A DNA stretch of 62,913 bases, counting the filler, from Reclinomonas americana ATCC 50394 (taxonomy: Eukaryota), in NCBI GenBank assembly GCA_048213135.1. It is 9 parts of 9 records of this genome, joined end to end, with 100 filler letters (N's around TTAATTAATTAA, not from the genome) between each part and the next. Parts side by side here need not be neighbours in the genome. Positions count along the whole stretch, not along the records: positions 50,999 to 56,538 come from AFZH01017739.1; 8 more parts are not named here. One strand, written 5' to 3'. Within the stretch, counting starts at the first letter, position 1; each line of letters begins with the position of its first letter. The position numbers and the translations under genes are program-made. The notes beneath the pieces are model-generated. The model did no database searches and was not told the origin of the DNA. It saw only the letters and a list, made by a program, of their open reading frames with translations. This document shows positions 7,456 to 57,100 of this stretch, piece after piece.

Positions 7456-9419
7456 ATGTCCCACGCGCAACTTTTTCAATCACACTCTCTTGGAGAGCCA
7501 ATGCTTGTGGTGTACGATCCCTTCACTGGCGTGGGCTCTGGCATTGTGCAAGCACGGGTGCGCCCTCTCTGTCTTTGCAGAGACTCCTTCTGCATGTCTC
7601 TCACTCTCCTGCATGCAGGGAAGAGAGTTCCGCGTGAGTGCAGTCTTCTCACAAGGCCGCGTGGAACGCGTGGAATGCGACGCAGAGATGCGTCTGTGTG
7701 TGCGTGAGCACGAGGAGGTGTTTCGCAAGGTACCCACTCTGTCACACACACACTCTCTCTCTCTCTCTCACTGCGTCACCTCATCGATCAGCAGATATGC
7801 ATTCGCTTTGTCTTTCTCAGTCTCTCATGCTCTTCCATCCCTCTTGCTCATTCTCTCCCCCACACACTACATCGCCTCCTCTTTCTCTCTCTCTCTCTCT
7901 CACACACACACGCATACTGCTTCATCTCATCGATCGCCAGACTTGCATTCTCATTCGCTCGCTTTCACTCTCTCCCTCTTCCTCTCCCTCTCTCTCCCTC
8001 TCCCTTTCCCTCTCCCTCTTCCTCTTCCTCTTACTCTTCCTCCCTCTCGTCTTCCTCTCCTTCCTCTTCCCTCTTTCCCTCTTTCCTCTCCCTCTCTCCC
8101 TCTCCCTCTTTCTCGTCCTCTTCCTCTTCCTCTTCCTCTTCCTCTCCCTCTTCCCTCTTCCCTTTGCCCTCTTCCCTCTTCCCTCTTCCCTCTACCCTGT
8201 TCCCTCTTCCTCTTCCTTTTCCTCTTCCTCTTCCTCTCCCTCCCCATCTCCCTCTCCCTCTCCCTCTCCCTCTCCCTCTCCCTCTCCCTCTCCCTCTCCC
8301 TCTCCCTCTCCCTCCCTTCCCATTGCCCAACCCTTCCCCTTTCATCCCTCCCCCTCTCCCTTCCCCTTTCATCCCTCCCCCTTTCCCTTCATGCCCTTTC
8401 CCCACTCCCTTTCCCTCTCTTCGCAGGCCCTTCAATCCACCTCCACCCCCACCGCCTTTTTTGAAACGCTGCAATCGCTGTTGGAGCGCGTGGTCGTGGA
8501 AGTGGAACAGGAGGACGAGCAGCAGCAGCAAAAGAAGAAGGAGATCGCAGGGGAACCGGAATTCCAGCCTCCACAGTTCTTTGCACAGCTGCTGGCCGAC
8601 CTGGAACGCGTGGGATGGCATCGTGTGCACGATATGGATGCGTCACTGGCGTCGCTGACGGTGCGCCTGGAGGACTCGCAGCAGAGACTGCATGACATTC
8701 GTGTGCGCATTCCCGCCGAGTACCCGCGACGCCCGCTGCAGTGCGAGGTGGATGTTCCGAGGCGGGCGCAACCTGCGCCGCCACTTGTGCTTCCGTCGTG
8801 TGCGTCGTTGGCGCACGTGCCGGCCGTGTACGGGGAGCTGCTGGAGCGCTACGTGGCGTTCTGGGACCAGATGGATGACATTGATGCGCACTGTTGGGTG
8901 CTGGAGCCGGAGCATCCGAGTCGAGCCGACACGCGACGGCGTCTCTTCATCAATCGCTTCAGCTCGGTGCAGTTTGAGGTCGATCCGCAGGCTCCTCGTG
9001 CGCTGCCGCACGATATGCGATTCTTGGGGGCAGAGCGTGAGGTCGCGGCACTGAGAATGCGTTTCAATGAGCGGCTGCGTGAGTGGGACGAGAGTGCACG
9101 CTCGGTGCGAGACAATCTGCAGCACGTGCTGAGTGTGGAGTTCCCCGCTCGACGAGCCGCCGCTCCTTCGGAGAGGGAGGGAGAGGAGAAGATGGAGACT
9201 GACGAGCACGTGGAGTGCGCTGTGTGCTACTCGTACCGCACGCCAACCGGCCTCGCACCCGATTTTGTGTGTCAGAACACTCGCTGTGCTCGTCCGTTCC
9301 ACCGCTCGTGCCTGCTCGACTGGCTCAAGTCGGTGCCCGGCGTGCGGCAGAACTTCGAGACCTACTACGGCACCTGCCCGTACTGCTCCGAGGCCATTGC
9401 CGTCAGCGAGTCTCACTGA
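7456..9419 (+). CDS. FANCL: E3 ubiquitin ligase FANCL
   Basis: Three exons. ELF-like N-terminus (PMLVVYDPFTGVGSGIVQARGREFRV), DRWD region (FWDQMDDIDAHCWVLEPEHPSRADTRRR; VRDNLQHVLSVEFP), and the C-terminal FANCL RING ECAVCYSY...PDFVCQNTRCARPFHRSCLLDWL...GTCPYC. Confidence 0.95.
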
Positions 9420-21440: not shown

Positions 21441-24400
21441 TTACAAGGCGACGCGGCCGCCGAGCATGGCCACGCGAGAAAGCATTTTTCGCGGGTCTCC
21501 GCCAGCGCCACCACCGATGGCGACAACGCCACCTGAGCGCCGTCTGGCTCGCAGAATGTCGCTGCCGGCTGCGTCGCTGAGCGGGATTGAGGATTTCCGG
21601 TACGGCACCGATGTCGGTGGCGAGTCGGCGACGACCTCGCGCAACACGTAGACGGCAGGCGGGCGTGTGGACTCGTCGTCTTCCTCATCATCGTCTTCCT
21701 CCTCCCCCTCGCCGTGGTCTACGCTGTGCAAGCTGGTGTGATCGATGCGGTGCTCGGTCGGCGTGACGTCGTCGTCGAGAACGTCGCCATGGGCCGACAC
21801 CACCGACATGCGGCGTGCACTGCGGTGGCTGCCACCGCTCGTGTCGCGGTCCATGGACAGGTCGAGGGCGCGCATGCCAAGCGTGTCGTGCATCACCATC
21901 ATCGCCGAGGAGTCGTCGGGTGGTGACAAGTGGCCGGTGGGAGGCATGACCGGTGGCACGCGGCCGCTGTTGGAGTGTGCCAGCGATGATGTTCCGACGC
22001 CGACACCAACGCCGCTGCTTCCAGGCGTGCCATTCGTTGGCATGGCTCCAGCAGCCGCCACCACGGCGGCCATGGTCGCAGCGTCCAAAGTTTTCGACAC
22101 ACGACGACGGCGACTTGGCGACAACTCAAAGTCGTCGACCATGGCGCGCAGCGAGTGGCTGGCTTTCGGCGAGGCGCGATAGTCGCGTGCACGCAGTGAC
22201 GACGGCGACTGCGGGCTGTGCTCAATGGAGCCCATGGAGCCGAGACTGTGAATTCCCGACGAGCCATTCAGCTGCGCCGGTGGCGATGTGAACAGCGCCG
22301 CGCGCACAGTGGCCGGCACACCAATCTCCAGCGGTGGCGGAGGTGCGCGTCGGATGCTGCCCACTCGCTGATGCTGCTTCTGCGGCGTGAACGCGTCAAA
22401 CTGTGGCTGTGGAAGATGTCGCTCGCCACCTCCACGACCGCGTTCCCTCGTCGCCCTCCACTCGTGACTGCCAACACGTGCCGGAGCATACGAGTCTGGG
22501 TGTGGTGCCGGCTGATCACTGGCGGCGGCGCCTGCTTCCGGACTCATCAGCAGCACGTTGCCGTTGCCGTTACTGTCGCCCCCACCACCCACTGCCGCCG
22601 GCGTCTCCGTTTGTTGCGACTGTCGCCGCAAGAGGACGCGGCGACTCTTGATGGCCACCACACGGCTGGCATTGGGCAACGAGGGGCGTGAGCGCGCCAA
22701 GGCGGCCGCCACCACCGCCGGGTTCACCTCGGACGGCGACAGCACCGGCGAGGCGACCGACATGTGCAGACCGCGCGGTCCCGCAGCCGGCGACAGCACC
22801 GTCCACCGCATGTCCGTGGCCTCGTCGGCGTACTCGACCTCGTCGTACTCTTCGTACTCGGATTCAACCGTCACTGGCGACACATCGTTGACGGGCGAGT
22901 AGGGCGCTCGTGTCGGAATCGGCGAGGCCAGTGGTGGCGGCAACGCCGCGCGACCAGTTGCACCTTCACCATCGTCGTCATCATCGTGGGTCGACGGAGG
23001 CTTGCAGAACAAGAAGCACGTCAGTCGCGCCAGCCACGTTGGTGCAGTGGCACAGCGACACTCGGCCTGTTGTGCCATGTCGGGCGTCGGTGCTGGTGGG
23101 GCTGTTGGCAGTGGCGCTGCTGCAGCAGCAGAAGAAGAGGCGGCAGTCTCCGCACCCTGCCGCGTGACCAGCTCGTATGCACGTGACCTGTCGGCCAGTG
23201 CGCGCTCATGCACTGCCATGTGCTCCTCGGCAGAGCGCCCTCTCCTAGAGTTGCCGGCCACCAGCGCGGCGGAGCGATTCGCCAGCGGCATGCCGTACAC
23301 ACTGGCGCCGTGACCGCCGTGGCTCTTTCGCAGCGGTGACACCAACGGTGGAAGGTCCGCATCGCTGCCACTTGATCCACTCTGCGTGGACGGTCGCCGT
23401 GGCTCTGAACGCACAGCCGGCGCTGGTGGTTGACTTGGCGTGCCGTTCAACGTCGGCTGCGGTGAATAGCCGTCGACGGCGTTGGCCAGCGCAAGCACCG
23501 CCTCGGCGCTGCTGGCCGACGACAGCTCACCAGGCGAGTGACTGTGCGTTGGAGGAAGAATGTGAGGAGATGTGAGCAGGAAAAGTAAACAAGGCAAGGG
23601 CGCACGCACGTCGGGCGTCCAAGCGAGCGACGATTGACGGGTCTCTTGCGTGCAGTGACCTGCAACTTGTCCACGCCGCCACTCTCCTCGTCGTCTGCAA
23701 CGCACAACACGCAATGAGTCTTCATGAAAAGGGACAAGGCTGCACGAGTCGAAGCAAGAGCACGCAACCGAGCATCGAGTAGAGCGCATTGGCCGAGTCG
23801 CATGTGAAACGCGCAAATGTCTCCAGACTGACCGCACCGAGTGGCAGTCGCACATTGCCCTCCTTGTCAAGCCACAAGTGACCGTTCCACGAAAAGGGCA
23901 GCCGGTACTTTTTGTACAGGTCGCATGCCGTGAGGTAGATGCGGCGAATCGTGTCGCGCGGCCGGAATTCAGTTAGACGCGCCGGCGCCTTGAGGGTGCC
24001 AGTCAGCAACAATCGCCGGCAATCCTCGAAGCGTCGTTCTCGGAACGCCGCCAGAGCCTCTTCCAGCTCGTGGTCCTCGCGCATGGGCTCGTCGGGCAAC
24101 CGCTGTGTGGGCGAGAGGTGAGGTGCAAGCAGACACACACTCTCTCACTTCTGTCCGCGTCTCACCAGCTCGTACAGCGACAGCGGCTCGGTTCGTCCAC
24201 TGACAACTACATCGCCGAGGAAACGCTTGGCGTACACGTCGCGATCGGGGACGCGGCTGAGCACGTCGCCAGAGACCAGCACTTGTGTCGAAAAGGCCTT
24301 GGTCAGGCCCTCTAATCTCGACGCCTGCAGCATGTTCTCTTGGTCAGCTCACAATAGCCAAACCTCATCAATGGCCCTTCCTCTCTCCTCCCACTCACCG

Positions 24401-27400
24401 TGTTGACCGTGTCCGCAATCACCGTGCCCTCCATGCGCGCATCGTGACCGATGGTGCCCAACATCACATTGCCGCTGTGGATGCCAATGCCAATGCCGAT
24501 CTTGCCGACACCCAAGGCGGCTCGCTCCTCGTTGAAGACGCTGAGAACGCGCAGCATGCTTTGAGCGGCCAGCAGAGCGTTCTCCTGCTGCCGCGGGAAG
24601 AGAGCCATGATGGCGTCGCCAATGAACTTGTCGATGAAGCCGTTGGCGTCGGAGATGCACGGCGTCACTCGGCGCAGGAACTCGTTGATGAACGCAAAGC
24701 TCTCCTCCGGGGTCATGTTCTGCGACAGCCGCGTGAAGCCACGAATGTCCATGAAGAGCACCTGCCAAAAGTAGAAAATGGTTGAGATTCACAATAAACA
24801 AACCCACCAACACTTCAGAAAAAGCAGGCTCACCGTCATCTCCTTGCTGATGCAGTCGCCCAGGGAGACGTCGGTGACCGACTCCTTGCCGAGCTCACTC
24901 AAGAACTGGCGCGGAAGGAAGCGCTCGTAGGCCGCATTGGTGCGCTTCAGGTCCTCGTACAGCTGCGCATTGTCGACCGAGATGCTCACTTGCGACATGA
25001 TGGCCTGCAGCAGCGGCAGCCGACTCTCCACAAACGCGCCATCCACACGATTGTTCTCCATGTACACAATGACACGCACGCGGCCCTTGTGCACCACGGG
25101 CAAGCAGATGATGGAGCGCGTCTGCATCGCCTGCACACGAGCTGCATCTTGCGAGTACACGGGATCCCGAGTGGCTGCGATCGAAACAACAAGGCTGAGA
25201 TCACGATACGCATAGTCCCCCTAGCACTGCACTCTGTGCACACTCACCATCACGGATAATCACTGGTTTTCTTGCACGCTCGGCGGTTCGCACCACTTGC
25301 GTGCACACCAAGTGCGAGGCGGCCTCGCTGGCCAGCGGCGTGCGTGTGGTGGAAGCAGGGTTGAGAGATTGCTGCGATGAGCGGCGCACGTCGCCGACCG
25401 ACTCAATGTACAGCTCCTGGTCGGCCTTGTCGCGCAGCAGCATCACGCCCCACTCGGCGCCGGTGTTCTCCATGAGGATGCGAATGACCTTGTCGAGCAG
25501 GTGGTCGAGGCGAATTTCCATCGACACGGCCTGCATGGCCTTCATCACACTCGACAGATCCATGCTCGACGAGATGTCTCCGGCCGACACCATCACGCCA
25601 TGCAGCGCAGCATTGCTGGCCGTGGCCGTCAGTGGTGGAGGCATGAGCGATGCCATGGCATCGTCGTCCAGAGGAGCTGCCGACTCGAACACGGTTTCGT
25701 CGCCCGCTGCACCACCACCACCACCACCGTGACTGCCAATGCCCGTGAGGTGACTGGCGGTCGAGCCGTGGCCACCAGTGCCGCTGGCGACACTGACAAT
25801 GCTCTGCCGATGAACAGTGGAGCCAGGCATGTCACCATGGCGTGTGCTAAAGGGGTCGCCGAGCCGGAGAATGTCGAGACCACCCGCCATAGAGTCCTCG
25901 GAGGTGAGCGGCGGTGGTGGGAAGCGCGGGCTCAGTAACAGCCGTCCCTGGCTGTTGGAGTTGTAGGCTGCGGAAATCAGCAGCCCGCTGTCCAGCGGTG
26001 CCAGTGGCAGCTCCCACGGTCCATTGGCCAGCACTGGATCGTGGCGATGGTGAGCACTGCTGAGAATCAACAATGGTGATGGCAGTGACGACATACCTCT
26101 CAAGTTGGGCGCGCTCTTCTTCACTTGCACATGCAGTCGCTGCATCGAATCGGCAGGTGTCAGTGTGCCCACGGCAGTCTCCGATGGCGAAGCACGCGGT
26201 GACGGGAGCGGAGTGGATGAGAACATGTGGCGGTAGTGCGAGCTGATGGATCGCACGCGCACGCCGACGCCCAGGAAGGCATACAGTCGCAGCGCCTGGC
26301 GTGCGTACATTTGCACGAGGTCGGAACCGAAGCCACCGAACTGGCAGTATGCCGTCAATCGCTCGGTGATGAGGGCACGGAACTGAGAAGCGAGCGCGAG
26401 AAGGTGAGTGACACGACAGTAGAAGTCAGTAAGCGTGTTTCTGTGCTCACCAGAGCAAAATTGCCTCGATGGGCGTCGTTGGCCGCCTTCTTGTACAGAC
26501 CGAATGTCTCCACAGTGGCAAAGGAGCGCACCGTCGTCGGCTTGGACACGAGGCTGACACCGACCGAGTCGCCCTCTTGTTGTTGAGCTGCGCCCTCGTC
26601 GTAGGCCCGCCGGCACTCGGTCTCCTGCCTGAACGCTTCCTCGGCGGCAGCATAGTCGACCACGTATCTGACGAAGATGGTGAGACGAAGACGAGAGGCG
26701 AGCGGGGTAAAATAGGCACTCTTGCGCAACTGATAGTTTCCCGGGCTCTGCGCGGCCCACTCGCGAACAGTCTTGAGGCTCGACTCCAGCACGCGGCGTG
26801 CATCGCGCACCTCGGACGCTGTGAACTGGCGGTTGTCGTCACGAGCGGCACGGGACGACTGCCATTGACTCGTTGCCTCCGTAAATGTGGTTTCGCCACC
26901 AGAAAAGTCGCTGCTCTGCGCCTTGAACATCATGCTCGTGCCGAGAGTGGTGGCCGAAGCGAGAACCATGGTGCACACAAACACTTCGAAAACAATGAGG
27001 AAGTGTGCCGCAGGGAAGCCGCCCCAGGCAAACGCCACCTGCCGCCAAATGTGAGGGCGCGTGCATGACGATGTGGATGGGAGTCACCAAAATTACGCAC
27101 CACACGAGCGTCGCGGAGTGAGCGGAAGGCGCCAACGAGATTACCGCACAGGAATTCGGCCACTCCACGCCACAGCGAGTAACTCATGGTGCACATGGGG
27201 ACACCGGTCAGCAGGCCCTCGGGAATGAACGCATCCAGTCGCTGAGCCAGCTGAGTAAATGGTGAAACTGATCCGAGGCCCTGTGTTGTGCGTACAGATG
27301 AGCCGGCGTTCCAGTGGGTCTCGCAGCGAAAGACGCAACGTCTGGCACGAAATCAACGGCCTCGAGTGGCATTTGCAAGTGGCGCACGACCTCGACAAAC

Positions 27401-30400
27401 ACCGAATCCTGCGACTCCTTGACGTACTTGTTGTACAGCACCAGCTGAGATGCGATGCGCGTAAATGGCACTCCAGTGGCGAACATAATGTGCACTCCGT
27501 TGACCTGCTCAGCGGAGATGATTGGACGGAAAAGACACAAAGGAGGTTAAGCACAAGTGCACGCACCGCAGCAAAAGCACCGAGCGTATGACAGCGGTGA
27601 TGCCGCGCAATGTCGACTGCACTGTCGAGCCACGGGAGGGTCTTTTGGATCGACACGCCCCACTGTGCCGTGGCACTGCCGTGCACCAGAGCTGGCACGA
27701 GTTGGACAACGTTTGCGGGGAAACGCTGCGGAGCAAGAAGCAGAATATTCAGTGTGTGATCAACAATTACACAGCGATATCATTCCCCACCTGCGCCAGC
27801 TGCCAGGCCACCTGTCCAAACTCGAACGCCAGATCCAGGTTGCTGAAATACGAGTGCAACGCAAACGCGAAGAATGCGTACGCATCAGCACACACCGCAT
27901 GGCTCGCCTCCAGTTGAATCGAGAGCAGAGCGGCGAGTGAACCCAACCACGCCAGCAGCTCCTGTACACCCCCAATGAAGAGCAATATGAGTTGCAGTAA
28001 TCAATGCCGACAGTGCCCTGTGGTGGACGAACCGAGCGATGCTCAAACTGCCCGTTGAGGTAGACCACATTCCACGCCGCCGAAATCGCCTTGATAAAGT
28101 GCAGCACCTCCACAAGATCACATGCTGCGCGAGGAACCAAGGGAATGAATTTCATAATGGCATCCAGAAGCAGCGAGAGTTGACACATACCACCCTCAAA
28201 CACGCTGCATGGATCCGGCTCGGCAATCGCCGATCCACCGCAACGCAACACGTACTCAGCAGACTGATCGCCGTCGTCCAGGATCAGCTCGCGTGCGAGC
28301 AAATCGCGAGGCTCATTCATGCCCGCCTGGCGCATGTGCTCCATCACTTGCTGCTGTGTCACAACCACCACTTCGCGCAGTGGATCGTCACCTGCATGCC
28401 ACACATGATGATGAGATCTTCAGCGCATTCAGCAACGATGCAGAGAGAGTTGGCACGCACCCTCAAGCGGAACAGCCAGACTGTACTCTTGCAACATGCG
28501 GTCGACGGCCTTGGTGCCGAGTTGCAAGTCACCCAGCGCCTGCAAGATGCCAAAGTACATGGCGTAGACTGGCATCCGCTCGGATCGCTTGGTGGCCTTC
28601 TCCAGCACCAGTTCGCACAACTCGCGGGCGCGGCTCAGATTGCCCATGCCTTGCTCCAGAGCAGCCAGCAGACCATACGCTTGCACAATTAGCTGATGTC
28701 GATCGCCCCACGAAACCGTACGCGCACGAGATGTCCAGTTCACTGGCGATGTTGACGACGATGTCGCTGATGATGATGACGGTTGGCGTGGTGAAGCGCC
28801 CTCCTGGTGTCGCAGAATCTCTTGCAGCAGCTCGTGTGCATTCAACAACGACGGTTGTGGTTGTGATTGTGGTGCACCTGGAAAAAAAGTGTGAGCCATT
28901 TCAAATTCACAACCAACATTCCCTCTCCCCCTCACAAACCATGACTGCGCGGCATCGCCTGCTGCAGGAGGTGCCTCTGCTGAATCAACCACATTTCGTG
29001 AATGGCCACCGCATGCCGTGCAAACTCCAGGCCCGTCTCAAAGGAGCCACTTCTCCGCGCCTCGTAGCTCGCCAGCACATTGATGGTGGCCACCAACACC
29101 TGGTACGAAGGATTCTCCACCATGTCGAACAGCTTGAAGCCCATGTTGAAGTGGTTGACCATGTCGAAGAGCATCGACGGATCAATCGTCTGCCTGCGCA
29201 CCTGCAGCTGCTCCTCGCGCCGCAGTCGCTCGTACTGCGCACGCAAGTGCTGCACGCGAGACAGCTCCGACGCAAATGGCACCGCCGAGAACAGCACCAC
29301 CAGATTGGGGAAGCGGTAAAAGGTCTTCAGTGCCAGGTGGAAGTGCAGAAGCGCACTCTGCTCTGGCGAGTTGAGGCTGTAGGCGGCTCCCCGCACGCGT
29401 GGATGCACAAAGGTGTAGGTGCTCTCCAGCTCGGTCGAGTGTCGCATCGACAACTCCAGGGAGTGCACCGAGGCCGAGGCTGAGGGTGTGGGAGGAAGGG
29501 GGAGGGGGTGAGGGGGAGGGGGGGAAGGAGGGGAAGGAGGAGAGGGGGAAGGAGGCGAAGTGGAAAGCAAGAGAAAGGAGGGGGAGGAAAGGAGAAAAGC
29601 GAAAGAAAGGAGCGAATAAAAGATGGGCAGAGAAGAAAAGAGTGAAATGAAAGGGATTGGGACGGCGAGCTGAAAAGGACTGAAAAGCAGAGCTGAGAAA
29701 GAGGGGAGCAAAGCTGCGGTAGAGTTGAGCACAGCGACGACCAAAAGAGACCGGGGGAGAAGAAGGATTGGATAGAAGCGAATTGAAGGAGAAGTGAGGA
29801 AGACAAGGCTGGAAGAAGTAAAGAACGAAGCAACACACGAGAGGGAAGGGAGGAGATTAAAAAGCATGAGACTGAGGAAGACGAAAGGAATTGTTTTGAA
29901 GGAAATAAGAAGCAGAGCTGAGGAGAAATGAGAGGCAGAGCTGAGAAATAGGAGAACAGAGCTGCAGACTAGGAGAGTAGAAAGGAGGGGCAAAGAGACA
30001 AGGGAAGAAGGAGGAATGGATTTGAAGGAAACATGAAGGAGAGCTGAAGAGGAATGTGAGGCAGCTGAGAAAGAGGAGAACAAGGCTGCAGAAGAGGAGA
30101 GAACAAAGTTCAGGCAAAATAGACTGAAGAAGAAGAGAAGAGCAAGTTGGAAGAGAACGAGAAGGACGAGCAGAGTGGAGCGGCTGACCAGATGTGATGA
30201 ACAACAAAGGTGTATAGCGAAATGATAGAATAAGGATGGAAGAAAGAAAGAAGAAGAGTGGAGGGAGAATGACTATCCGAGCATGATGAGGAAGTAAGGA
30301 ATCATCAATTTAGGCACGCAACTGGCAAGTGGACCAGACACGGCCAGGGAGTTGGTGGTGGGTCCGCTTTCGGTGAACCAACCCTCCTGGACGCACTCAA

Positions 30401-33400
30401 ACAACAGGTCGCGGAACTCTTGCACAGTGCGAATCGAGTGCTCCTGCACCACACTGCCTGTTAATAGATGGTGTCACCACAATGAGTCGCCCACTTCCAA
30501 TGACAAACCGTATCGGTGTTGGCCGACTCGACGAGCAGCAGCTGGCGCACACTGAAACGCATGCCGACAATGGCCGCCGAGCGCAACAGCCGCTGCACCT
30601 TCACCGAGCCACGCGACTGCAACCGGTGGATCATGAAGTCCACCACGTTCTCCGACGCTTGCATGCGCGTGTGCAGCTTCGCCAAGTCCACCTTCCACTG
30701 CTGTCGCTGGTAGTCAAAGTGGAGAATGCTTTCCTCGTAGATCTGCAAGCGGCACAGTGAGACTCGCCAAGGCTCGTAAAAAGAACTGAAAGCACCACGA
30801 ACCGTGTGCAACCACTCGCGCACGTAGAACGGGTTGCCCTTGGTGCACTGCATGATCGAGGAGGCGAGGTCGTGGAACTCGCCCTGGCTGGTGTCACAGT
30901 GGAGAGTGTCGCGGATCATGCGCGCCACGTGCTCGTGATTGAGCAACTCCAACTGGATGTCGCACACCTCGGCTCCACAAGCCGCCAGCGCCGACACCTT
31001 GGCACTGATGCTGTTCATCACATCGCTCGCACCACCCCCATGCCGCGTGTCCGTGGCATCGTCGCGATACGACAAGGCAATGGCCAGACGACCGCTGCTG
31101 TACTCGGTGGGCGCCACCGTCGACATGAGTGTGGAAATGAGCTGCGCCGTGCTGGCGTCGGCACAGTGGACATTGTCAAAGGTGACCAGCAGCGTGTTCT
31201 GGCGGCCTGGTCGGTCGTGCAGCCCGTTTCCGGCGGCCACGGCCAACAGAATTGAGACGACAGCGTCGCGCACAGCATCCATGGCGGGAATGCCTGGAGT
31301 GGTGGTTTCAGAGAGAGCACCCGCTTGCGGGCCACTGTTGTCGGCATTGTTGGGCGTGTGCACGTCGCCAAAGAGCGCATCGCCCTCCAGCAACGGCGCA
31401 AACTCGGGAATCAGCGGCAACAACATGCTGCCGCGATCTGCGAATATACAGAAAAGGAGAAAAGGTGTGATTACTCGTCACAGAATCACTCATAATTTGC
31501 ATGGCACCAACCTTGCAAGGCGCGCATCACCACATCTCGCCAAGCGTGAAAATCAACGTCACGTTGCGCAATCAAAAACGTGACCAGCTGGCGCATCAGC
31601 TCACGAATGGCAGCCGATGGTCGCGAGTGGCTGTACTCGTCAAAAGCCACTGCCAGGCACACGGCCTGTCCAATAGCGGCCGTTTCCGAGTCGTCGGTGG
31701 ACGCCTCGGTGACCAGCTGTTGAATCTCCGACAGCAGCGCCGTCTTGCCGGCACCGGGTTCACCATGCACGAGGACCACGGAGACTTGTGGGGCGGACAT
31801 GGCCGAGGCTGTGAGGGGAGAGGGTGGATGAGAAGGAGAAGACAAGGGACGAAAGGAGGAGAAGGTGGAGAAGAAAAAACAAGGAGTAGAAGGGGAGACA
31901 ACCGCAGAACAAGAAAGCGCAGAAGTGACAAGAAGAAACAGTGGAGAGCATAAAGAATGCAGAGGAGGAGAAGGGGACAGGAACGCGCAGAGGGAAAGAA
32001 TAAGGAGACGAATAAATACACAATTAACATCAACGAATCGAGAAAGAAGAGGAAAGCCGGATGATAAGACGACAGGAAATGTAGTCGCAGGAGAGACAAA
32101 ACGAGAACCAGATGGAGAATAGCAAAACAACAACAACAACAACAACAGCAATAATACCAAGAAGAAGAAGATCAAGAAGAGTAAACCCAAGAAAAATGCA
32201 GAAGAAAATGCAGAGAAGATCTTAGATGCGAGAGGATACAGGAGGAGGAACTGGATAACAGCTGACGGAGGACATGACGATGAAGAAGAAGCGAGAGAAC
32301 AGAGGTGGAAAAACTGCAGCAACAACAGCATCAACAAAAACACGAATCACGAGTTCATGATGTAGGCAAGTGACTCGAGACGATTAATGGGAACGGACAT
32401 GACATGCGAATGAAAGAGAAAGGAGTGCGTTGCGAGACTTCGGTACATAAGACACATCGCCTTTCGACACAGAAGAGCATCAATGAGATATCACCATGAA
32501 CATATTCCCTTGACTATCCTACTTCCCTTTCTCCCGTCTCCCCTTTTCCCTTTCCCCTTCCCTCTTCCCCCTCTTCTCCTCTTCCCTCGTTCCCCCTTCC
32601 CCCTTCTCCCTTCCCCCTTCCTTTCCCCATACGCACCACGTCGCTCGAAACGATTACGAGCAAACGGCGAACTCCCGTGCGACAGCGAGCGTGACGAGCG
32701 CCGACTCCGCCGCTGCTGCATGTTGCGCGCAGCAATGGCTTGCATGGCCTGCTGCAGCGCTGCCTCGCGGCCGTACAGCTTGTTGGGAATGTGGAATGAG
32801 TTGTCGACCTCGCACTGGCCGGCCACAAACGACTCCAGTTCCTGATAGAACAAAAAGAGATGAGGACGAAGAGATTACAAAAGAAGCATCATTGCATGCG
32901 TGGTCACCTTTTCCGCCAAAAACAGTCGATCGCGCACAAACTCCATGTCGAGAGCCAAGCCGAGGGCCGTCTGGTACCGATGCGCAGGATCCTTGGCCAG
33001 CAGCTTGGCCACAATGTTGGAGATGCACTGCGGAATCACCATGGTGCCGTCGGCCGTCAGGTGCGTGAGGGAGCGCGACTGCGAGTTGCTTCCGTGTCGG
33101 TGTGTGGTCGAGGTGAGTGGCGGCGGCACGCGCGCAATGTGGCTGTGGATGAGATCCAGCGGATCGTCGCACGTGAATGGTGGCTTGCCCGCCAGCAGCT
33201 CGTACGCAATGACGCCCAGCGTATACAGATCGCTGCGGTCGTCGACAGCCACACGCCCGAGACGGCCCGTCTGTTCCGGACTGGTGTACAAGAAGAACTG
33301 GCGCACCGACTGACCCTCGCTGAGTGGCTGCTGCGACGCCTGCACAAAGTGCTGATCGGTGGTGTTGCGAAAGGCCACCACCGAGGCCATGCTGAGGTCG

Positions 33401-50898: not shown

Positions 50899-51042
50899 NN
50901 NNNNNNNNNNNNNNNNNNNNNNNNNNNNNNNNNNNNNNNNNNTTAATTAATTAANNNNNNNNNNNNNNNNNNNNNNNNNNNNNNNNNNNNNNNNNNNNGA
51001 GCGAGAGCTCGCTGCGGCTGAAGTGCGGCGATCAGAAGGAAA

Positions 51043-51124
51043 CGTGTGCTGACCGTTACACCACCGGGGTATCAGGAAGTCACCCCGGGCGGGAGTCGAA
51101 CCCACATCTCGTGCGTGATAGGCA
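51043..51124 (-). tRNA. Circularly permuted tRNA gene, Asp-type body, anticodon ATC
   Basis: On the minus strand, the 3' half 51124-51081 (TGC CTATCAC GCACG AGAT GTGGG TTCGACT CCCGC CCGGGGT G) comes first, then the spacer ACTTCCTGAT (51080-51071), then the 5' half 51070-51043 (ACCCCGG TG GTGT AACGGTCA GCAC A CG). Re-joined, the halves give a fully paired 72-nt cloverleaf. Confidence 0.85.
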
Positions 51125-51244
51125 AAGAACTGATCTGCCAAGGTCAGCCAGCGAGCTCTCGAGAGGTCTTCATTCACCAGCTAAGGGAGGAATGAGAAGG
51201 CGGGGAAAAAGAGAGAAAGAACAACAATGGCACGTGTGGGCGCC

Positions 51245-53815
51245 TCACTGACGCTGGCAACGCTGAGCCGCCGTCTGCGCAATGTGCGCCGCGGAGAAGC
51301 CAGCCGCGCATGCTTCCACAAAAAAACACTAGTGAGGCGATGAACGAATAGTAACACTGCGACTCAGTTGTGTTCCTTCACCTTGGCGCAGGAAGCGAGC
51401 GTACTTGAAGCCGTAGGTGTTGTCCATGAGGCTGTCGTCGCCCGGGCAGGCGCTGTCCAGCATCTTCATCGCCGACAGCATGCAGTTAGTGTCCACCGGG
51501 GTTGAGCTGCATGGCGGGTACATATTATGAGGCATGAGGTGTGTGCATCCAGCACAACAATCCTTTACGCAACGTGGTGCACACGTCGTCGCCAGCACGA
51601 CGCTGGTCGAGCGCCTTGGCGCCCTCGATGCCGAACAGATCGACCGCCAGCATGCCAAAAGTGAGATCCACGCGACGGCGGTGCTCCTCGATGACCGCCA
51701 GGCGTGCGCCAATCACCAACTGCATCAGCCCCACAGAGGAGAATTCAGATTAAAAAAGCACGATGCACGCTGCGCAGAGTGGAGAACAGCGAAACTCGCT
51801 CCTCCTCAGACGTCGCATCCTCGTACATGAACTGGTGGCGCTTCAGCTCCACATCCTGCGAGAATGGTCGTGAGAAAAATATACACGCAAGGCATTTTGA
51901 TTTGGTCGTCAAACACACAGACACACCCACGACGGCACAGGGGCGCGACGAGCGGCCTCGCGAGCATTGGCAGGCGGCGTGCGGGTGGCCCGTCGGCGCG
52001 CTGGAAGCGAGAGAGAGAGAGGGAATAGGTGAGAATTGTGCGAGAAGCAAATCGGGTTCACATACACATGCTCACCAGCGCGGTGTGCGCGCGAGAACGG
52101 CGCGTTGGAGAAGAAGTCGCTGATGGGCAAGCTGCGCGATGACGGAAAAATTGTTTGTTGAGTGGATAAGTAACGAGGGGGGGGGGGGGGTGCACATGGC
52201 ATGAGAACGCGCACCTGGCCATCGACGAGTCGCCATACTGTGACGCGCACACACGCACACACGCGCATTCAGCGAAGTGAGGACATGCACGAAAAGGAAT
52301 GTGACTTTTGACGCACCTGGCACACGTGCGACTCGGTGGTGTTGGCGCGCACGGCCACAAACTGCTCTTGCAGCGTGTACGTCGAGTCCGACACCTCCTT
52401 CTCGGTGTTCAGCAGGAAGTCAATGGAGAAGCAGTCCTGGGAAGCGAGGAGTATGTAAGCGAAGGAGAGACGTGTGGGCGAGATGAGCTTGGCCGACGAC
52501 TCACATTCAGGTACGTCTGTGCGTGTGCATGACAAACAAATGAGAAACGAACATGTTAACACGACACACAACGACAAAGCACGGCACGCACATGGAATTT
52601 GGAGTCGTAATCGCAGGCGTAGCTCTGCAGTGTACCGAGGGTGAGTAACAGAGTGCGACGCTCACATCACATCACTTGTGCACAAGCGCACGCAACGCTC
52701 TCGTCCGGATCGGCGGCCGTGACAGCGTAGACGTTGGGCGGCAGCGTCTGACCGGCAAACATCGAGCCACTCTCGCACGCCTCCACGTAGATGACCAGCT
52801 GGCTGTACATCTGCTGCTGGTGCATGGTGTTCAGCGTCTTGATCAGCTGCTCCACCGTCAGCACCTGCGAGTGGAAAAACGTGCCGGGGAACGCCACCAG
52901 GCCCGGAGCGCCGTGGTCCGCAAAGTAAATCGTCACACGATCATTCGGGCCCGACTGCACAGAGGAGACATTGGCACGCACGCACACACGACGAAGAAGG
53001 GGGAGGAGAAGATGAACAGCACCTTCAACGTCTTGCCAGTGCCGCCCGACGGAACTTGGCCCTGCACCGGACGGAATGCGTAAGCAAAGCAGACACGAAA
53101 GACGGAAGAAAAGAACGGGAAGTTGGCTCACCGTCAGCACTTTCATAAAGTTCTCCGGCGACACCAGGTGCTTCGTGTAATCCTTCGGCACACCCGGGTA
53201 CTCGTTCGGACCCTGCACCATCACAGTGTGAGACAAGCATCGCAGACAACGAGGCCACAACTGTGCAAGCATGCGAAACTCCAGGATCTGCATGCACACA
53301 CACACGCACGGGGAGGTCAGTGAGCACTGGTGAAGCAGGAAAGCACAGTGAGCTCACACGCAACAGTTGATCACAGTGCCCTTGTGCGGGTTGTCGATGC
53401 TGTCGGCAATGTCATCATAGTGGAACACAATGCTGTGATTGTTGTTGTTGCATGTCAGTGTCATGAGAGAACACAACAACAAAGAGTGCATCATCGTAAC
53501 ATGTTGGAGTCGGGAATGCCATTGGCTGCGAGAAAACGCGTGTGTGAGAGAGTGTGTGTGCTTCTTTTTTTGCACTCGTTCTCACATACACACACCATGC
53601 AGCATCTGATACGCGTGGTAAATGTCGCTTTGATGGCGCTGCGTGAGAGCGTGTGAGACAAAGAGCATGTGTGCATGTGTGTATGAGAGAGAGAGAGTGC
53701 GCACATAGTTGTCGTATCCCTTGCTGCCGGCGACAATCACTGCCCAGTGAGCGCCAGTGGCCGAGGCGCAGGCCACCGTGCCCAGCAGAAGCACGAGGAA
53801 GAGAGCAGCGCGCAT
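51245..53815 (-). CDS. LGMN: Legumain / asparaginyl endopeptidase (peptidase C13)
   Basis: Signal peptide, [36 protein letters not shown].G...Y.GVPKDY, the catalytic YFADHG and YVEACESGSM, YAVTAA...ESSYAC, SHVCQYGD, and a C-terminal prodomain. More than 15 exons. Confidence 0.95.
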
Positions 53816-54148
53816 TTATCTCGTCCAACACAAAATATCCCGCGTACTTTTAGTCAAGGACGAAGAGCTTAAGGTGGTCCTTAGCTCTTGATACCTCGCG
53901 TACTCTGCTTTCTCATGTGCTCTTCGACAATGGAGACCGCGCGCGCGCATGATGAAAGACAATTGTGATATCGAAGTAATGCTTGCAAACGAGCTCGAGG
54001 TGCGGGCCCATTCCACTCATCTCTACAATGCGCCAGTGTCAAACTCGACAGCCACTGCTTCCATTTCCACAGTCGACGTCGCAGGCGGACGACCCTTGAA
54101 AAACCTGTCAATATCCGGCGGACACTTTGCTTCTTCCTTCCTTCGCTC

Positions 54149-57100
54149 ATGGCGAGCGCTGGGAACTGCCCGGAGTGTGCGTGCACTGCGGCCGAGTTCA
54201 AGTGCAATGCCTTCAAGGCCGCCTCGCTCGCATGCATCGAGTGCTATCACACACACTTGCCCGCGGAAGGAGGCGCATCTGCTGTTCCCTCTGCTGCGGC
54301 TGCTCCACCCCCGCTCATCCAGATGAATCCCTCGGGCGCTGCTCTGGCTGCCGCGCGTGCAGCAGCTGCACAGAATGCGCAGGTGTGTGTGTGTGTATGT
54401 GAGTGCGTGTGTGTCTTTGATTGTGGTCTCTCTCATCTCTCGTTGTGCACAAAGGCGGCGGCGAATGAGCGGCCGCCGCAGAGCAACGCGAATGCACCTG
54501 CCCCGCTCTTCTCGCCTCTGCGTCAGCAGCCGCAGCCGCAGCAGCAGCCACAGCAGTCTGTGCGACCGCTTGTGGTGGCGGCACCTCCACAGCAGGTGCT
54601 GCCACTAGTGCAACCGCCTGCGCGAGAAGTAAGCTCTCCGCCACTGCCTCTGGTGCAGCCGCCGTCTGCTGCACAGCAGGTGCTGTCGCCACAGCCAGTG
54701 CGCCCTCCTCCTCCTCCGCAGCAGGCACAGTCGCCGCCTGTAGCCCAACAAGTGCTGTCGCCACAATCGGTGCGCTCTCCACCACAGCAGGTGCAGTCTC
54801 CGCCACCAGTGCCACAGGTGCGCTCTCCACCGCTGCCACCACCGCAGCAACAGCAAGTGGTGTGTGTGTGCTATTGTGCTGTGTTATGAACTCCGTGCAT
54901 GTTCGGTCTTCTCACCTGGATCTTCACGCAGGCCCCAACAGGCTTGCGCGAAGCCGCTGTCAAGGTCACTTCCCTCTGACTCGCCTCCGTCGACTACATT
55001 GTGTGGTGCTCACTCCTGTCGTGCGCAGCGTGTTTGCGAGGCTCTTCCGGACCTGTCGCGGTCCGACGCGGAGCGTGAAGTGGACGCCATCGATGTGAAT
55101 GAGGTCCGTGCGGTGCAGGTGCTCATCGACCGGCTGCGTACGCAGAAGCAGTCGGTAGGCATGGCAGCGGCCCTGGTGCCGACACCGGTGCGGCCGACGA
55201 CGATGGCGGACCAGGCAAATATTGCGGCCAGGAAAGTTTACTTGAGCGAGGTCTGTTGTTGCAGTATCGTCACCCGAGTGCGTGTGCTCTCTCTTCTCAC
55301 ACATATTTCGGTCTCTACCATCACAGAAAGTCAGAGAATTTGCGCCTGAGGTGAAGGATCGGGTACTGAACATGGCGTTTGCGTCGTACGAGTCCACGCT
55401 CTTCGATGACACTCGAATCATGGACCAGCTGATGACGTTTGTGTTTGATCATATAGATGATTTGGTTCGTGCGCTGGCCATTGTGTGTGTACGTGCTTTG
55501 CTGGTTCTGAAGTAGGTTTGCTGCGCGGGCAGGGTCCATCAGGATCCGCAGCAGCAGCAGCAGTACCGGCGGCACCAGCAGCAGCAATTGTGGAACCGAC
55601 GGGCGTGATGCCGCCGCCACAGCCGGGCCGTCGGCCAGAGTCGCCAAGGCCACAGATTACGTCCCCATCACACGCAAAGGTACCGAGCGCCTCATCTTCG
55701 CAGTCATCCGCTGCAGCCGTCGTCGACATGTACCCCAACGAGGGTCCCTCGAATCCGCGACCTGTACAGGTGCTACAAGTCGCTATCCCTTGCTCCTGTC
55801 CATCTTGCCTCACAGTTGTGACGTGCAGTCGCCTGTCGAAGCGAGCAACGACCCATCATATGCTGAGCTTTTTGCTGCTGCTCACCGTGGCTATGTGCCG
55901 GAAGTGACACCCGGCGGGCCGACTCCTGGCGGGCCAGAAGATGACATCCCAGTCGGTATGCACTCGTGAGAGAAGCAATGTGTTTCTCACATGACTGATG
56001 CCGTTCGTCTTTTGTTGCACAGATGTGCTGTTGCGCACGTTGCTGGAATCTGCGTGCGCTGTGATGGACTTGCGTGTGAGAGTACTGGAAGAGATTCGCA
56101 GTGCTGCATCACTGGTTTGGACTGTGTGCGATCGTTGAGCTGTTTCGTGCGGTGTAATTACCGTACCGTGCCTTCTCCTTTTTTTAGGCGGACCTGGACG
56201 ACGCCGAGGAACGGTACGGCAAATTGGTGGAGCGCAGTCAGACCATCCACGGACGAACCGTGGACCTCAACGCACCCATGGCGGAAAAGTCGGATATCTT
56301 CAGAGAGCTTCGTCGTTTACTGCCGGCTGATTTCCGCCACGCTGCTGACCGGCGACGAGCGGCGCTAGAGGAGGAAATGTCTGCCGCGGAGTGGGGCGGT
56401 GACGGTGAGTCGTGTTTTCGGCATCATGTCGTCTCTACATGCTCTCATATTGCTGCTGACTTTTTGTATCGTGCGCTGTCAACGCAGACTTGGAGAGCTC
56501 TGTGGTGAGTGCTCGTGCTTGACTTTCAATGATTTTTGNNNNNNNNNNNNNNNNNNNNNNNNNNNNNNNNNNNNNNNNNNNNTTAATTAATTAANNNNNN
56601 NNNNNNNNNNNNNNNNNNNNNNNNNNNNNNNNNNNNNNACTCTTGCTGACTGTTGAGCTTTCATGTACAAGGATCATGGTTTTGATATGATGGTGGCGCA
56701 GGTAAGAAATGCAATACTCTTTTTTCCTTTCCACTCTCGTACAAAGCTAAGCGGTGGCCTCGGTTCTCAGCGACCACCTGGTGCTCCTGGCGCGGCCGCT
56801 GCCGCCTTCAGCGTGGCCGCCGACGACGACGACATCTTTGGCGGACGAGGTGCGGCGGCCACGCTTATTGTACGACCACAACAACCGCAGCCACCGCCGC
56901 TTGTCGGTGGTTACGGTGGTCCTAGTGAGCTGCCTGGCGTGAGCGCTCGCTTGGATCGTGGTCCGGCTGGGCCACCGGCCGGGGCGCGTGATGGCGGTCC
57001 TCCCCCCGTGAAGGGTTTCGTGCCGGTCGCTGCCGGTGGTGCCGGTCGAGCACCTGGTGGATTTGCTCCCGCTGCTGGTGGTGCTGGTCGAGCACCTGGT

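What the first reader, a model, noticed from the sequence alone, without database searches (positions are those of the whole stretch)
51002..51161. Circularly permuted tRNA gene with its junction in the anticodon stem
Seen: on the minus strand the tRNA 3' half (51124-51081) lies upstream of the 5' half (51070-51043), separated by a 10-nt spacer that closes the acceptor stem (CCGGGGT-G-acttcctgat-ACCCCGG). Re-joined, all arms pair: acceptor 7/7, D stem GTGT/GCAC, anticodon stem CGTGC/GCACG, T stem GTGGG/CCCGC with a TTCGA loop, 72 nt in total. No other 5' half lies between it and the legumain stop at 51245. Established: permuted tRNAs occur in Cyanidioschyzon merolae, some prasinophytes, the Bigelowiella nucleomorph and Thermofilum, and in C. 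merolae they mature through a circular intermediate. The junctions I recall are in the D loop, at 37/38, in the T stem or in the T loop. Inference: the junction here is at 28/29 or 29/30 (a shared T makes it ambiguous), which would be a different class and possibly a new host lineage.
Basis: partly seen in the sequence, partly recalled or inferred. Interest (0 to 1): 0.95.

Follow-up and report, generated by a model that had tools for sequence, protein, structure and literature searches.

The report
Back-to-front tRNA-Asp copy beside scaffold gap
An unidentified GC-rich eukaryote carries a perfectly formed aspartate-type tRNA written back half first and clamped by a long hairpin, but its odd anticodon, the missing splicing motif and an adjoining assembly gap make a DNA-rearrangement by-product more likely than a working gene.

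Summary
On the minus strand a tRNA 3' half (51124-51081), a 10-nt spacer and a 5' half (51070-51043) rejoin into a 72-nt cloverleaf that ARAGORN calls tRNA-Asp(AUC). This geometry occurs once in the window and in 0 of 1000 shuffled windows. A roughly 28-bp leader/trailer helix brackets the halves.

A junction at 28/29 or 29/30 is absent from the 34 permuted genes listed in the 2014 review. No annotated genome is close to this organism.

Four things count against a working permuted gene:
- There is no central BHB helix at the junction.
- Anticodon AUC is one that eukaryotes avoid.
- No polymerase III terminator or TATA element is in view.
- The element ends 3 nt before a true scaffold gap. That gap could hide a hairpin loop, a second leader and a second 3' half.

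My odds:
- Duplication or rearrangement by-product, or an intermediate stage: 0.5.
- Working permuted gene: 0.25.
- Mobile element: 0.1.
- tRNA-like RNA: 0.07.
- Misassembly: 0.05.

No RNA data, genome or homologue could be obtained. The scan has noted permuted tRNAs on other DNA, but none resembles this one.

The parts
51125..51165 (-). Leader: 41 nt upstream of the 3' half. Bases 51161-51130 form one strand of the leader/trailer helix and 51129-51125 (UUCUU) are unpaired. The first 10 nt (51165-51156, CTCTCGAGAG) are a palindrome.
   Evidence: Duplex fold. 13-nt perfect inverted repeat 51149-51161 / 51002-51014. Sequence.
51081..51124 (-). tRNA 3' half (nt 29-73): three pairs of the anticodon stem, loop CUAUCAC with anticodon AUC, a 4-nt variable region, T arm GTGGG/TTCGACT/CCCGC, 3' acceptor strand CCGGGGT and discriminator G. 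No CCA is encoded.
   Evidence: The Rfam tRNA model aligns its 3' part here with high posterior probability.
51071..51080 (-). 10-nt intervening sequence ACTTCCTGAT, joining the discriminator base to nt 1. It has no T run.
   Evidence: It lies within the 1-74 bp range of known permuted genes.
51043..51070 (-). tRNA 5' half (nt 1-28): 5' acceptor strand ACCCCGG, U8, D arm GTGT/AACGGTCA/GCAC, A26, C27 and G28.
50999..51042 (-). Trailer: 7 unpaired pyrimidines (UUUCCUU), the second strand of the helix (51035-51002), then CUC and the scaffold gap.
50899..50998 (.). Scaffold gap (44 N + TTAATTAATTAA + 44 N) directly downstream of the trailer. Its content decides between the rival readings.

Best explanation
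The locus is a real, circularly permuted copy of an aspartate-type tRNA. I think it is a by-product of DNA rearrangement, and that the permuted unit is not itself the organism's working tRNA-Asp gene.

Inferred history: a tRNA-Asp-type gene was interrupted in the 5' strand of its anticodon stem (between nt 28 and 30) by a hairpin-forming sequence of roughly 85 nt. That interrupted gene was then duplicated head to tail with a 10-nt spacer, or copied from a circular form. What is visible is the second arm of the hairpin, a 3' half, the spacer, a 5' half and the first arm of the hairpin.

Either a second hairpin arm and 3' half follow in the adjoining gap, or the locus is a stand-alone remnant. 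In the first case the visible 5' half is exon 1 of an ordinary-order gene and the upstream 3' half is an orphan. This is the intermediate stage of the duplication-and-loss model.

Shown: the order of the parts, the perfect cloverleaf, the helix, the absence of a central BHB helix, the AUC anticodon, and that the gap is real.

Inferred: the history, and that the permuted unit does not itself yield a decoding tRNA.
For: 1. No BHB at the junction. The central helix forms 1 of 4 pairs (register 28/29) or 2 of 4 pairs (register 29/30). Of the 13 other registers tried that do have a 4-bp helix, none coincides with a junction that restores the tRNA.

2. Anticodon AUC. A34 in two-codon boxes is described as expected to be deleterious and avoided in eukaryotes (PMC5372738, passages). 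GAU is an ordinary codon here (35 GAT and 43 GAC in 1344 domain-supported codons). GAU is normally read by a GUC tRNA (recalled).

3. The block ends 3 nt after the last pair of the trailer helix. Those 3 nt (CUC) repeat the first three of the four bases (CUCU) before the leader helix. That is what a contiguous hairpin (trailer, CUCU loop, leader) would give. The linkers are true scaffold gaps: the blocks on either side of 3794-3893 share the same 18 nt at their edges.

4. The helix is far stronger than a processing motif needs. It is -47.0 kcal/mol and about 28 bp, matched or beaten by 12 of 17320 background placements and by 0 of 2000 shuffled trailers. It starts 5-7 nt from the junction, which fits the two arms of a foldback sequence.

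5. [quoted passage not shown] The element starts 84 nt after a same-strand stop codon.

6. The duplication-and-loss model and observed intermediate stages (tandem intron-containing genes, and an extra 5' half beside the O. lucimarinus tRNA-Cys gene) are described in PMC3978253 (section 10 read).
Against: - All 21 stem pairs and the conserved positions (U8, A14, the GG of the D loop, A21, U33, T-loop TTCGA) are intact. An old pseudogene should show damage, so any inactivation must be recent, or the halves are still under selection.
- The two halves meet at exactly the same tRNA position, and the leader/trailer helix brings the two ends together. That is the design of a working permuted or split tRNA.
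- Relaxed 'no H' motifs are accepted for some known permuted genes and introns, including a 27/28 intron. The missing central helix therefore does not exclude splicing.
- The block start GAGCGAGAG is the kind of GA-rich motif at which 4 of the 8 gaps in this window sit. The break may have nothing to do with a repeat of the element.
- The CUC match is only 3 nt.
- A mutation landing on nt 34 alone is itself improbable for a neutral orphan.
- GAA is rare here (5 of 80 Glu codons). That would lessen the miscoding cost of an I34 tRNA-Asp.
Confidence: 0.5

Rival explanations
1. It is a working circularly permuted tRNA gene. One transcript runs from the leader to the trailer, and the long helix brings the ends together. 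An endonuclease trims both flanks at 28/29 or 29/30 and a ligase closes a circle. RNase P and tRNase Z then open it at the 10-nt spacer, and CCA is added.
For: - Exact permuted geometry with all arms and conserved bases intact.
- The spacer length lies within the known 1-74 bp range and has no T run.
- No CCA is encoded, as in eukaryotes.
- The leader/trailer helix is significant.
- 'No H' junctions and a 27/28 intron exist in accepted cases.
- The cloverleaf-compatible fold of the precursor is only 3.3 kcal/mol above the free minimum (-74.2 against -77.5).
Against: - No central BHB helix, and the required cut on the 5'-half strand lies 6-7 nt from the flanking helix, where BHB geometry puts it 1 nt away (geometry reasoned from the canonical 37/38 case).
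- Anticodon AUC.
- No terminator or TATA element in view.
- The element abuts a gap.
- No homologue was found to show conservation.
Confidence: 0.25
2. It is a small mobile element (MITE-like). It has 13-bp perfect (about 22-bp imperfect) terminal inverted repeats, CGAGAGCTCGCTG... and ...CAGCGAGCTCTCG, flanked by a 3-4 bp target duplication (CTCT / CTC-). The permuted tRNA is internal cargo.
For: - The inverted repeat sits at the very ends of the element.
- The bases just outside both arms match (CUCU and CUC).
- The helix ends abruptly on both sides.
- A multi-copy element would explain why the assembly breaks at its edge.
Against: - No other copy of the 13-mer (2 mismatches allowed: 3 other matches, all with 2 mismatches, against 5.76 expected by chance).
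- No other copy of the inner leader or trailer 20-mers (3 mismatches allowed) in 63 kb.
- Only 3 nt of the putative duplication are visible.
- No known class of element carries a permuted tRNA (recalled, not searched).
Confidence: 0.1
3. It is a tRNA-like structural RNA and not a decoder. It would be either a Y-RNA-like molecule (long terminal stem, pyrimidine-rich internal loop, permuted tRNA-like head, as in bacterial YrlA) or a tRNA-like module in the 3' UTR of the upstream gene, cut by RNase P or tRNase Z.
For: - Rfam YrlA aligns over the T arm, closed acceptor and D arm (17.8 bits, E 0.26).
- The element has the same strand as the upstream gene and starts 84 nt after its stop codon.
- No AATAAA lies between the stop codon and the element (sequence).
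- The internal loop is UUCUU / UUUCCUU.
Against: - The YrlA score is far below the gathering score of 69, and any permuted tRNA would align this way.
- A complete anticodon arm with a 7-nt loop, U33 and A37 is not expected in a mimic.
- YrlA is bacterial and phage-borne (recalled).
- No Ro60 gene was seen among the window ORFs scanned.
Confidence: 0.07
4. It is an assembly artefact: the permuted order was created by collapse or mis-joining of repeated tRNA sequence at a contig end.
For: - The element is the last thing before a gap.
- tRNA genes are commonly repeated (recalled).
Against: - The upstream side runs without a break into unique sequence and the legumain gene.
- The leader and trailer are imperfect complements with bulges and loops, unlike the exact fold-back an assembler or amplification chimera makes.
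- No part of the element recurs in the window.
Confidence: 0.05

Closest known systems
Circularly permuted nuclear tRNA genes of Cyanidioschyzon merolae and Mamiellophyceae (Soma 2007 and Maruyama 2010, as summarised in PMC3978253)
   Same: The 3' half lies upstream of the 5' half on one strand. A short intervening sequence (10 nt here, 1-74 bp known) links the acceptor ends. The rejoined cloverleaf is canonical and no CCA is encoded.
   Different: - The junction is in the 5' strand of the anticodon stem (28/29 or 29/30). Known junctions are 15/16, 20/21, 37/38, 50/51 and 59/60.
- There is no central BHB helix.
- A helix of about 28 bp is set 5-7 nt back from the junction.
- The isoacceptor is Asp, with the avoided anticodon AUC.
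- No TATA element or T-stretch is in view.
- The organism is not close to any annotated genome.
Permuted tRNA-Ser(TGA) of Ostreococcus lucimarinus with a 56-bp 'no H' intron at 27/28 (Table 1 of PMC3978253)
   Same: A eukaryotic tRNA gene interrupted in the 5' strand of the anticodon stem by a sequence of tens of nucleotides, without a central BHB helix.
   Different: There the 27/28 interruption is an intron inside a half and the permutation junction is at 37/38. Here the interruption is itself the permutation point. I could not compare sequences because none was available to the tools.
Archaeal introns at 29/30 and 30/31, and split tRNA-Ala genes of Caldivirga maquilingensis split at 29/30 (PMC4090602)
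   Same: The same position of disruption. Complementary flanks bring the two pieces together.
   Different: These are archaeal and BHB-dependent, and the halves lie at separate loci or in normal order, not permuted. The window is eukaryotic, with spliceosomal introns, kinesin and FANCL.
Intermediate stages of the duplication-and-loss model (tandem intron-containing tRNA genes; the extra 5' half beside O. lucimarinus tRNA-Cys; PMC3978253 section 10)
   Same: A partial tRNA copy lies directly beside a related half with a short spacer.
   Different: Whether a second 3' half exists here is unknown, because it would lie in the gap.

Membership tests
Circularly permuted tRNA genes | The 3' half is encoded upstream of the 5' half on the same strand, joined by a short intervening sequence at the acceptor ends | tested here: met
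   1 real hit against 0 in 1000 shuffled windows.
Circularly permuted tRNA genes | The rejoined halves give a canonical cloverleaf with the conserved tRNA bases | tested here: met
   ARAGORN calls tRNA-Asp(atc), 72 nt. The minimum-free-energy fold is the cloverleaf.
Circularly permuted tRNA genes | The leader and trailer form a BHB motif (strict hBHBh' or relaxed hBH / HBh') at the junction | tested here: not met
   The central helix forms 1 of 4 or 2 of 4 pairs in the two possible registers. Only a flanking helix is present. This would have to count as a 'no H' form, which the review allows for a few cases.
Circularly permuted tRNA genes | An upstream TATA-like element within about 50 bp and a T-stretch terminator downstream of the 5' half | tested here: inconclusive
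   No TATA element in the 200 nt upstream and no run of four or more T in the 44 nt before the gap. A terminator could lie in the gap.
Circularly permuted tRNA genes | A circular RNA intermediate and a joined mature tRNA are detectable | not testable with these tools
   No sequencing run was listed and no genome is held.
Circularly permuted tRNA genes | The product fits the organism's decoding set | tested here: not met
   The anticodon is AUC. A34 in two-codon boxes is avoided in eukaryotes (PMC5372738). The organism's other tRNA genes could not be examined.
tRNA genes with a non-canonical intron in normal order | Exon 1, intron and exon 2 are collinear | not testable with these tools
   Exon 2 would lie in the gap 50899-50998.
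YrlA / Y RNA-like | Reaches the Rfam RF02553 gathering score | tested here: not met
   17.8 bits against 69.
MITE-like DNA element | Terminal inverted repeats, a flanking target duplication and multiple copies | tested here: inconclusive
   Inverted repeats are present. Only 3 nt of a possible duplication are visible. No second copy in 63 kb.

The most novel reading that the evidence does not exclude
A eukaryote from a lineage far from all annotated genomes makes a tRNA-Asp from a circularly permuted gene whose ends are joined inside the anticodon stem. It uses a long leader/trailer helix and no BHB motif, which implies an end-joining route different from the BHB-dependent one known for algae and archaea. 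It may also use an A34 (or I34) aspartate decoder in a genome that almost lacks GAA codons.
Probability: 0.2. Interest if true: 0.85.

Novelty: new variant of a known kind. Interest (0 to 1): 0.5.

Why it matters
Permuted tRNA genes are known from only a handful of algae and one archaeon, and in every case the junction carries the splicing-endonuclease motif. A working example with its junction in the anticodon stem and no such motif, in an unrelated eukaryote, would show two things. Permutation would have arisen independently again, and some other cut-and-join route could repair it.

If the gap instead holds a second 3' half, the locus would be a caught-in-the-act intermediate of the duplication-and-loss model for how permuted genes arise. 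If it is a dead remnant, it is a curiosity. Closing one gap and running one RT-PCR would decide between these outcomes.

Tried and rejected
- Whole genome: none is held for this window.
- Sequencing runs: none was listed for 51002-56500, and no RNA holder was listed. Read laying could therefore not be used.
- Earlier notes: none exist on this genome, and there is no look-alike by sequence.
- Metagenome scan for the permuted arrangement (T loop, 3' acceptor, 1-31 nt, 5' acceptor and D arm): 0 matches.
- Metagenome scan for a 20-nt stretch of the 5' half: 6 loci, none related. Four had no tRNA call and lay in what looked like protein-coding sequence by eye. One was called an ordinary tRNA-Gln and one a tRNA of undetermined type.
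- Placing the organism:
  - Pfam over 261 stop-to-stop ORFs showed eukaryotic families but no lineage marker.
  - The FANCL region had 1 hit, at 35% identity, and its cluster has no further members or names.
  - The PITH region had 6 hits, the best at 45% identity.
  - The atlas look-up of a kinesin exon gave mixed taxa.
  - A full-text search for the linker TTAATTAATTAA gave only a pipeline lead (listing only).
- Decayed tandem pair of intron-less genes: rejected.
  - Leader against 5' half: 4925 of 5000 shuffles score at least as well.
  - Trailer against 3' half: 2821 of 5000 shuffles score at least as well.
  - The ACCUUGG acceptor partner occurs in 478 of 11228 background 41-mers.
- BHB inside the long helix: its loops are a 1-nt bulge, a 3x4 internal loop and a 2-nt bulge. 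I judged by eye that these are not two 3-nt bulges four pairs apart.
- Amplification or assembler fold-back: rejected because the arms are imperfect complements.
- Dada-type tRNA-targeting transposons (recalled, 6-7 bp duplications): this does not fit the single shared T at the junction. I did not search for them.

Full report
**What is there.** Read on the minus strand, the stretch 51165-50999 has five parts:
- a 41-nt leader;
- a tRNA 3' half (51124-51081);
- the 10-nt spacer ACTTCCTGAT;
- a tRNA 5' half (51070-51043);
- a 44-nt trailer.

After the trailer the block ends at a 100-base linker. I joined the halves by coordinates in a script, at 28/29 or 29/30 (a shared T makes the two equivalent). 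The 72-nt product is called tRNA-Asp(atc) by ARAGORN, and its unconstrained minimum-free-energy fold is a clean cloverleaf of -29.7 kcal/mol.

The product has:
- a 7/7 acceptor stem, a 4/4 D stem, a 5/5 anticodon stem and a 5/5 T stem;
- U8, A14, the GG of the D loop, A21 and U33;
- a 7-nt anticodon loop and a TTCGACT T loop;
- discriminator G and no encoded CCA.

ARAGORN and Rfam at gathering thresholds find no tRNA anywhere in the 62.9-kb window. In a permissive Rfam search the tRNA model aligns confidently only to the 3' half (19.5 bits, E 0.098). The YrlA model aligns over the T arm, closed acceptor and D arm (17.8 bits, E 0.26). That is what a permuted tRNA should give.

**More than chance.** A scan for a T arm followed by a closed 7-bp acceptor finds only this site in the window. 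I then added the D arm and an anticodon stem completed across the junction. This gives 1 hit in the real window and 0 in 1000 shuffled windows, while the partial pattern alone gave 187 hits in those shuffles.

**The flanks.** The leader and trailer pair over about 28 bp. Running outward from the tRNA: 6 bp, a 1-nt bulge, 4 bp, a 3x4 internal loop, 6 bp, a 2-nt bulge and 12 bp, for -47.0 kcal/mol. Only 12 of 17320 same-geometry placements across the window are as stable, and 0 of 2000 shuffled trailers. The outer 13 bp are a perfect inverted repeat found nowhere else in the window. The inner 20-mers of both arms are also unique. The helix begins 5 nt (leader, UUCUU) and 7 nt (trailer, UUUCCUU) from the junction. 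The whole 167-nt precursor folds at -77.5 kcal/mol, z = -5.57. Forcing the T, acceptor and D arms costs only 3.3 kcal/mol and keeps the long helix.

[quoted passage not shown] The review treats that motif as the recognition element for the splicing endonuclease that circularises the precursor. I derived the expected geometry from the canonical 37/38 case: a four-pair central helix, with each cut two bases into a three-base bulge on the 3' side of its helix strand. I then tested both registers. The central helix would form 1 of 4 pairs (28/29) or 2 of 4 pairs (29/30). None of the 13 other registers with a 4-bp helix restores a tRNA. The cut needed on the 5'-half strand also lies 6-7 nt from the flanking helix, where the motif puts it 1 nt away. 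The review does accept 'no H' forms for a few genes and introns, among them a 56-bp intron at 27/28 in the permuted O. lucimarinus tRNA-Ser(TGA). The missing helix therefore weakens the case for splicing-type maturation but does not exclude it.

**The anticodon.** AUC places A34 in a two-codon box. A review of eukaryotic tRNA gene sets (PMC5372738, passages read) states that such tRNAs are expected to be deleterious and avoided, because inosine at 34 would misread the neighbouring box. The exceptions it lists come from very large tRNA gene sets of unknown function. In 1344 codons from Pfam-supported stretches of this window, GAT (35) and GAC (43) are both common, whereas GAA is rare (5, against 75 GAG). 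GAU is therefore an ordinary codon. It is normally read by a GUC tRNA (recalled). The cost of an I34 aspartate tRNA misreading GAA would be unusually low here. I recall that G34 is also an identity element for yeast aspartyl-tRNA synthetase; I did not check this in a paper.

[quoted passage not shown] There is no TATA element within 200 nt upstream, and a T5 run sits 45 nt before the leader helix. The element starts 84 nt after the TGA (51247-51245) that ends the same-strand reading frame attributed to legumain. Pfam support for legumain (Peptidase_C13) lies upstream at 52670-53353. The next minus-strand ORF begins at an ATG about 70 nt beyond the gap.

**The gap.** The window contains eight identical linkers of 44 N, TTAATTAATTAA and 44 N. 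They are true scaffold gaps in genomic order. The blocks either side of 3794-3893 end and begin with the same 18 nt, and 4 of the 8 gaps are flanked by GA- or CT-rich simple repeats. The block holding the element begins (plus strand) with GAGCGAGAG. That is the same kind of motif, so there is an ordinary reason for the break at this spot.

On the other hand, the block ends only 3 nt beyond the last pair of the trailer helix. Those 3 nt, CUC, repeat the first three of the CUCU that precedes the leader helix. If trailer, CUCU and leader were contiguous they would make one hairpin. In that case the gap hides a loop, a second leader and a second 3' half. The visible 5' half would then be exon 1 of an ordinary-order gene carrying a roughly 85-nt hairpin in its anticodon stem, and the upstream 3' half would be an orphan. 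This is the intermediate stage of the duplication-and-loss model for the origin of permuted genes. The review reports comparable stages in green algae. The same 3-4 nt could instead be a target-site duplication around a small element with terminal inverted repeats.

**Rejected along the way.** Neither the leader nor the trailer is a decayed tRNA half. 4925 and 2821 of 5000 shuffles align at least as well. The ACCUUGG in the leader that Rfam used as a 5' acceptor strand has an equivalent in 4.3% of background 41-mers. The imperfect arms argue against an assembler or amplification fold-back.

**Organism.** The window is eukaryotic:
- GT-AG introns in the legumain gene;
- kinesin, C2H2 zinc fingers, FANCL, PITH, a GAF-cyclase gene, a protein kinase and Kelch repeats.

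It is 58% G+C. The best public relatives of the FANCL and PITH regions are 35% and 45% identical. No annotated genome is therefore close. That makes C. merolae, Ostreococcus and Micromonas unlikely sources (inference; that their proteomes are public is recalled). I could not name the lineage.

**No comparative or expression evidence.**
- No genome is held.
- No sequencing run was listed.
- Two metagenome scans gave nothing related.
- The scan's own notes hold no look-alike.

**What is known.** The 2014 review lists 34 permuted genes with junctions at 15/16, 20/21, 37/38, 50/51 and 59/60, and none for Asp. A 2026 review still names only C. merolae, O. tauri and the B. natans nucleomorph among photosynthetic eukaryotes (PMC13578239, passages read). 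My full-text search for 'permuted tRNA' returned 74 papers, 30 of them listed. No listed title or abstract start reports an anticodon-stem junction (listing only). Position 29/30 is nonetheless a known site of archaeal introns and of split tRNA-Ala genes (PMC4090602, passages read). The original papers of Soma 2007 and Maruyama 2010 were not read; I know them only through the reviews.

**Verdict.** The permuted order is real as assembled, and its junction class is not among those described. Whether it is a gene is open. I put:
- 0.5 on a rearrangement by-product or intermediate, in which the permuted unit is not itself the working gene;
- 0.25 on a working permuted gene;
- 0.1 on a mobile element;
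- 0.07 on a tRNA-like structural RNA;
- 0.05 on misassembly.

Gap closure plus one RT-PCR would settle it.

Noticed in passing
window 3776-3793 and 3894-3911: The blocks on either side of the linker 3794-3893 end and begin with the same 18 nt (CGAGAGGGGGAGAGCGAG). This gap probably has zero or negative length inside a GA-rich simple repeat. 4 of the 8 linkers in the window sit at GA- or CT-rich repeats.
   Followed up: partly
window, 10 Pfam-supported coding stretches (1344 codons): Strong avoidance of GAA (5, against 75 GAG) and TAT (4, against 28 TAC), while GAT/GAC (35/43) and AAT/AAC (21/24) are nearly balanced. This is an uneven third-position bias for a 58% G+C genome.
   Followed up: no
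window 24315-32346 (-): A run of minus-strand ORFs carries adenylate/guanylate cyclase, GAF and AAA_16 domains. It may be one large multi-domain signalling gene.
   Followed up: no
window 7638-9419 (+): A 593-codon open frame with FANCL domains 2, 3 and C-terminal. Its only relative found in the word-indexed collection is 35% identical, from a eukaryote protein set. The organism is poorly sampled.
   Followed up: partly
window 51138-51144 (-): The leader bases ACCUUGG can pair 7/7 (two G.U) with the 3' acceptor strand, so Rfam's tRNA model draws a D-arm-less tRNA from the leader plus the 3' half. The background rate is 4.3%, so this is probably chance.
   Followed up: yes
window 51156-51165 (-): The leader begins with the 10-nt palindrome CTCTCGAGAG, and each arm of the 13-bp inverted repeat contains the palindrome GAGCTC. 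Palindrome-rich ends could favour breakage or recombination at the tip of the helix.
   Followed up: no
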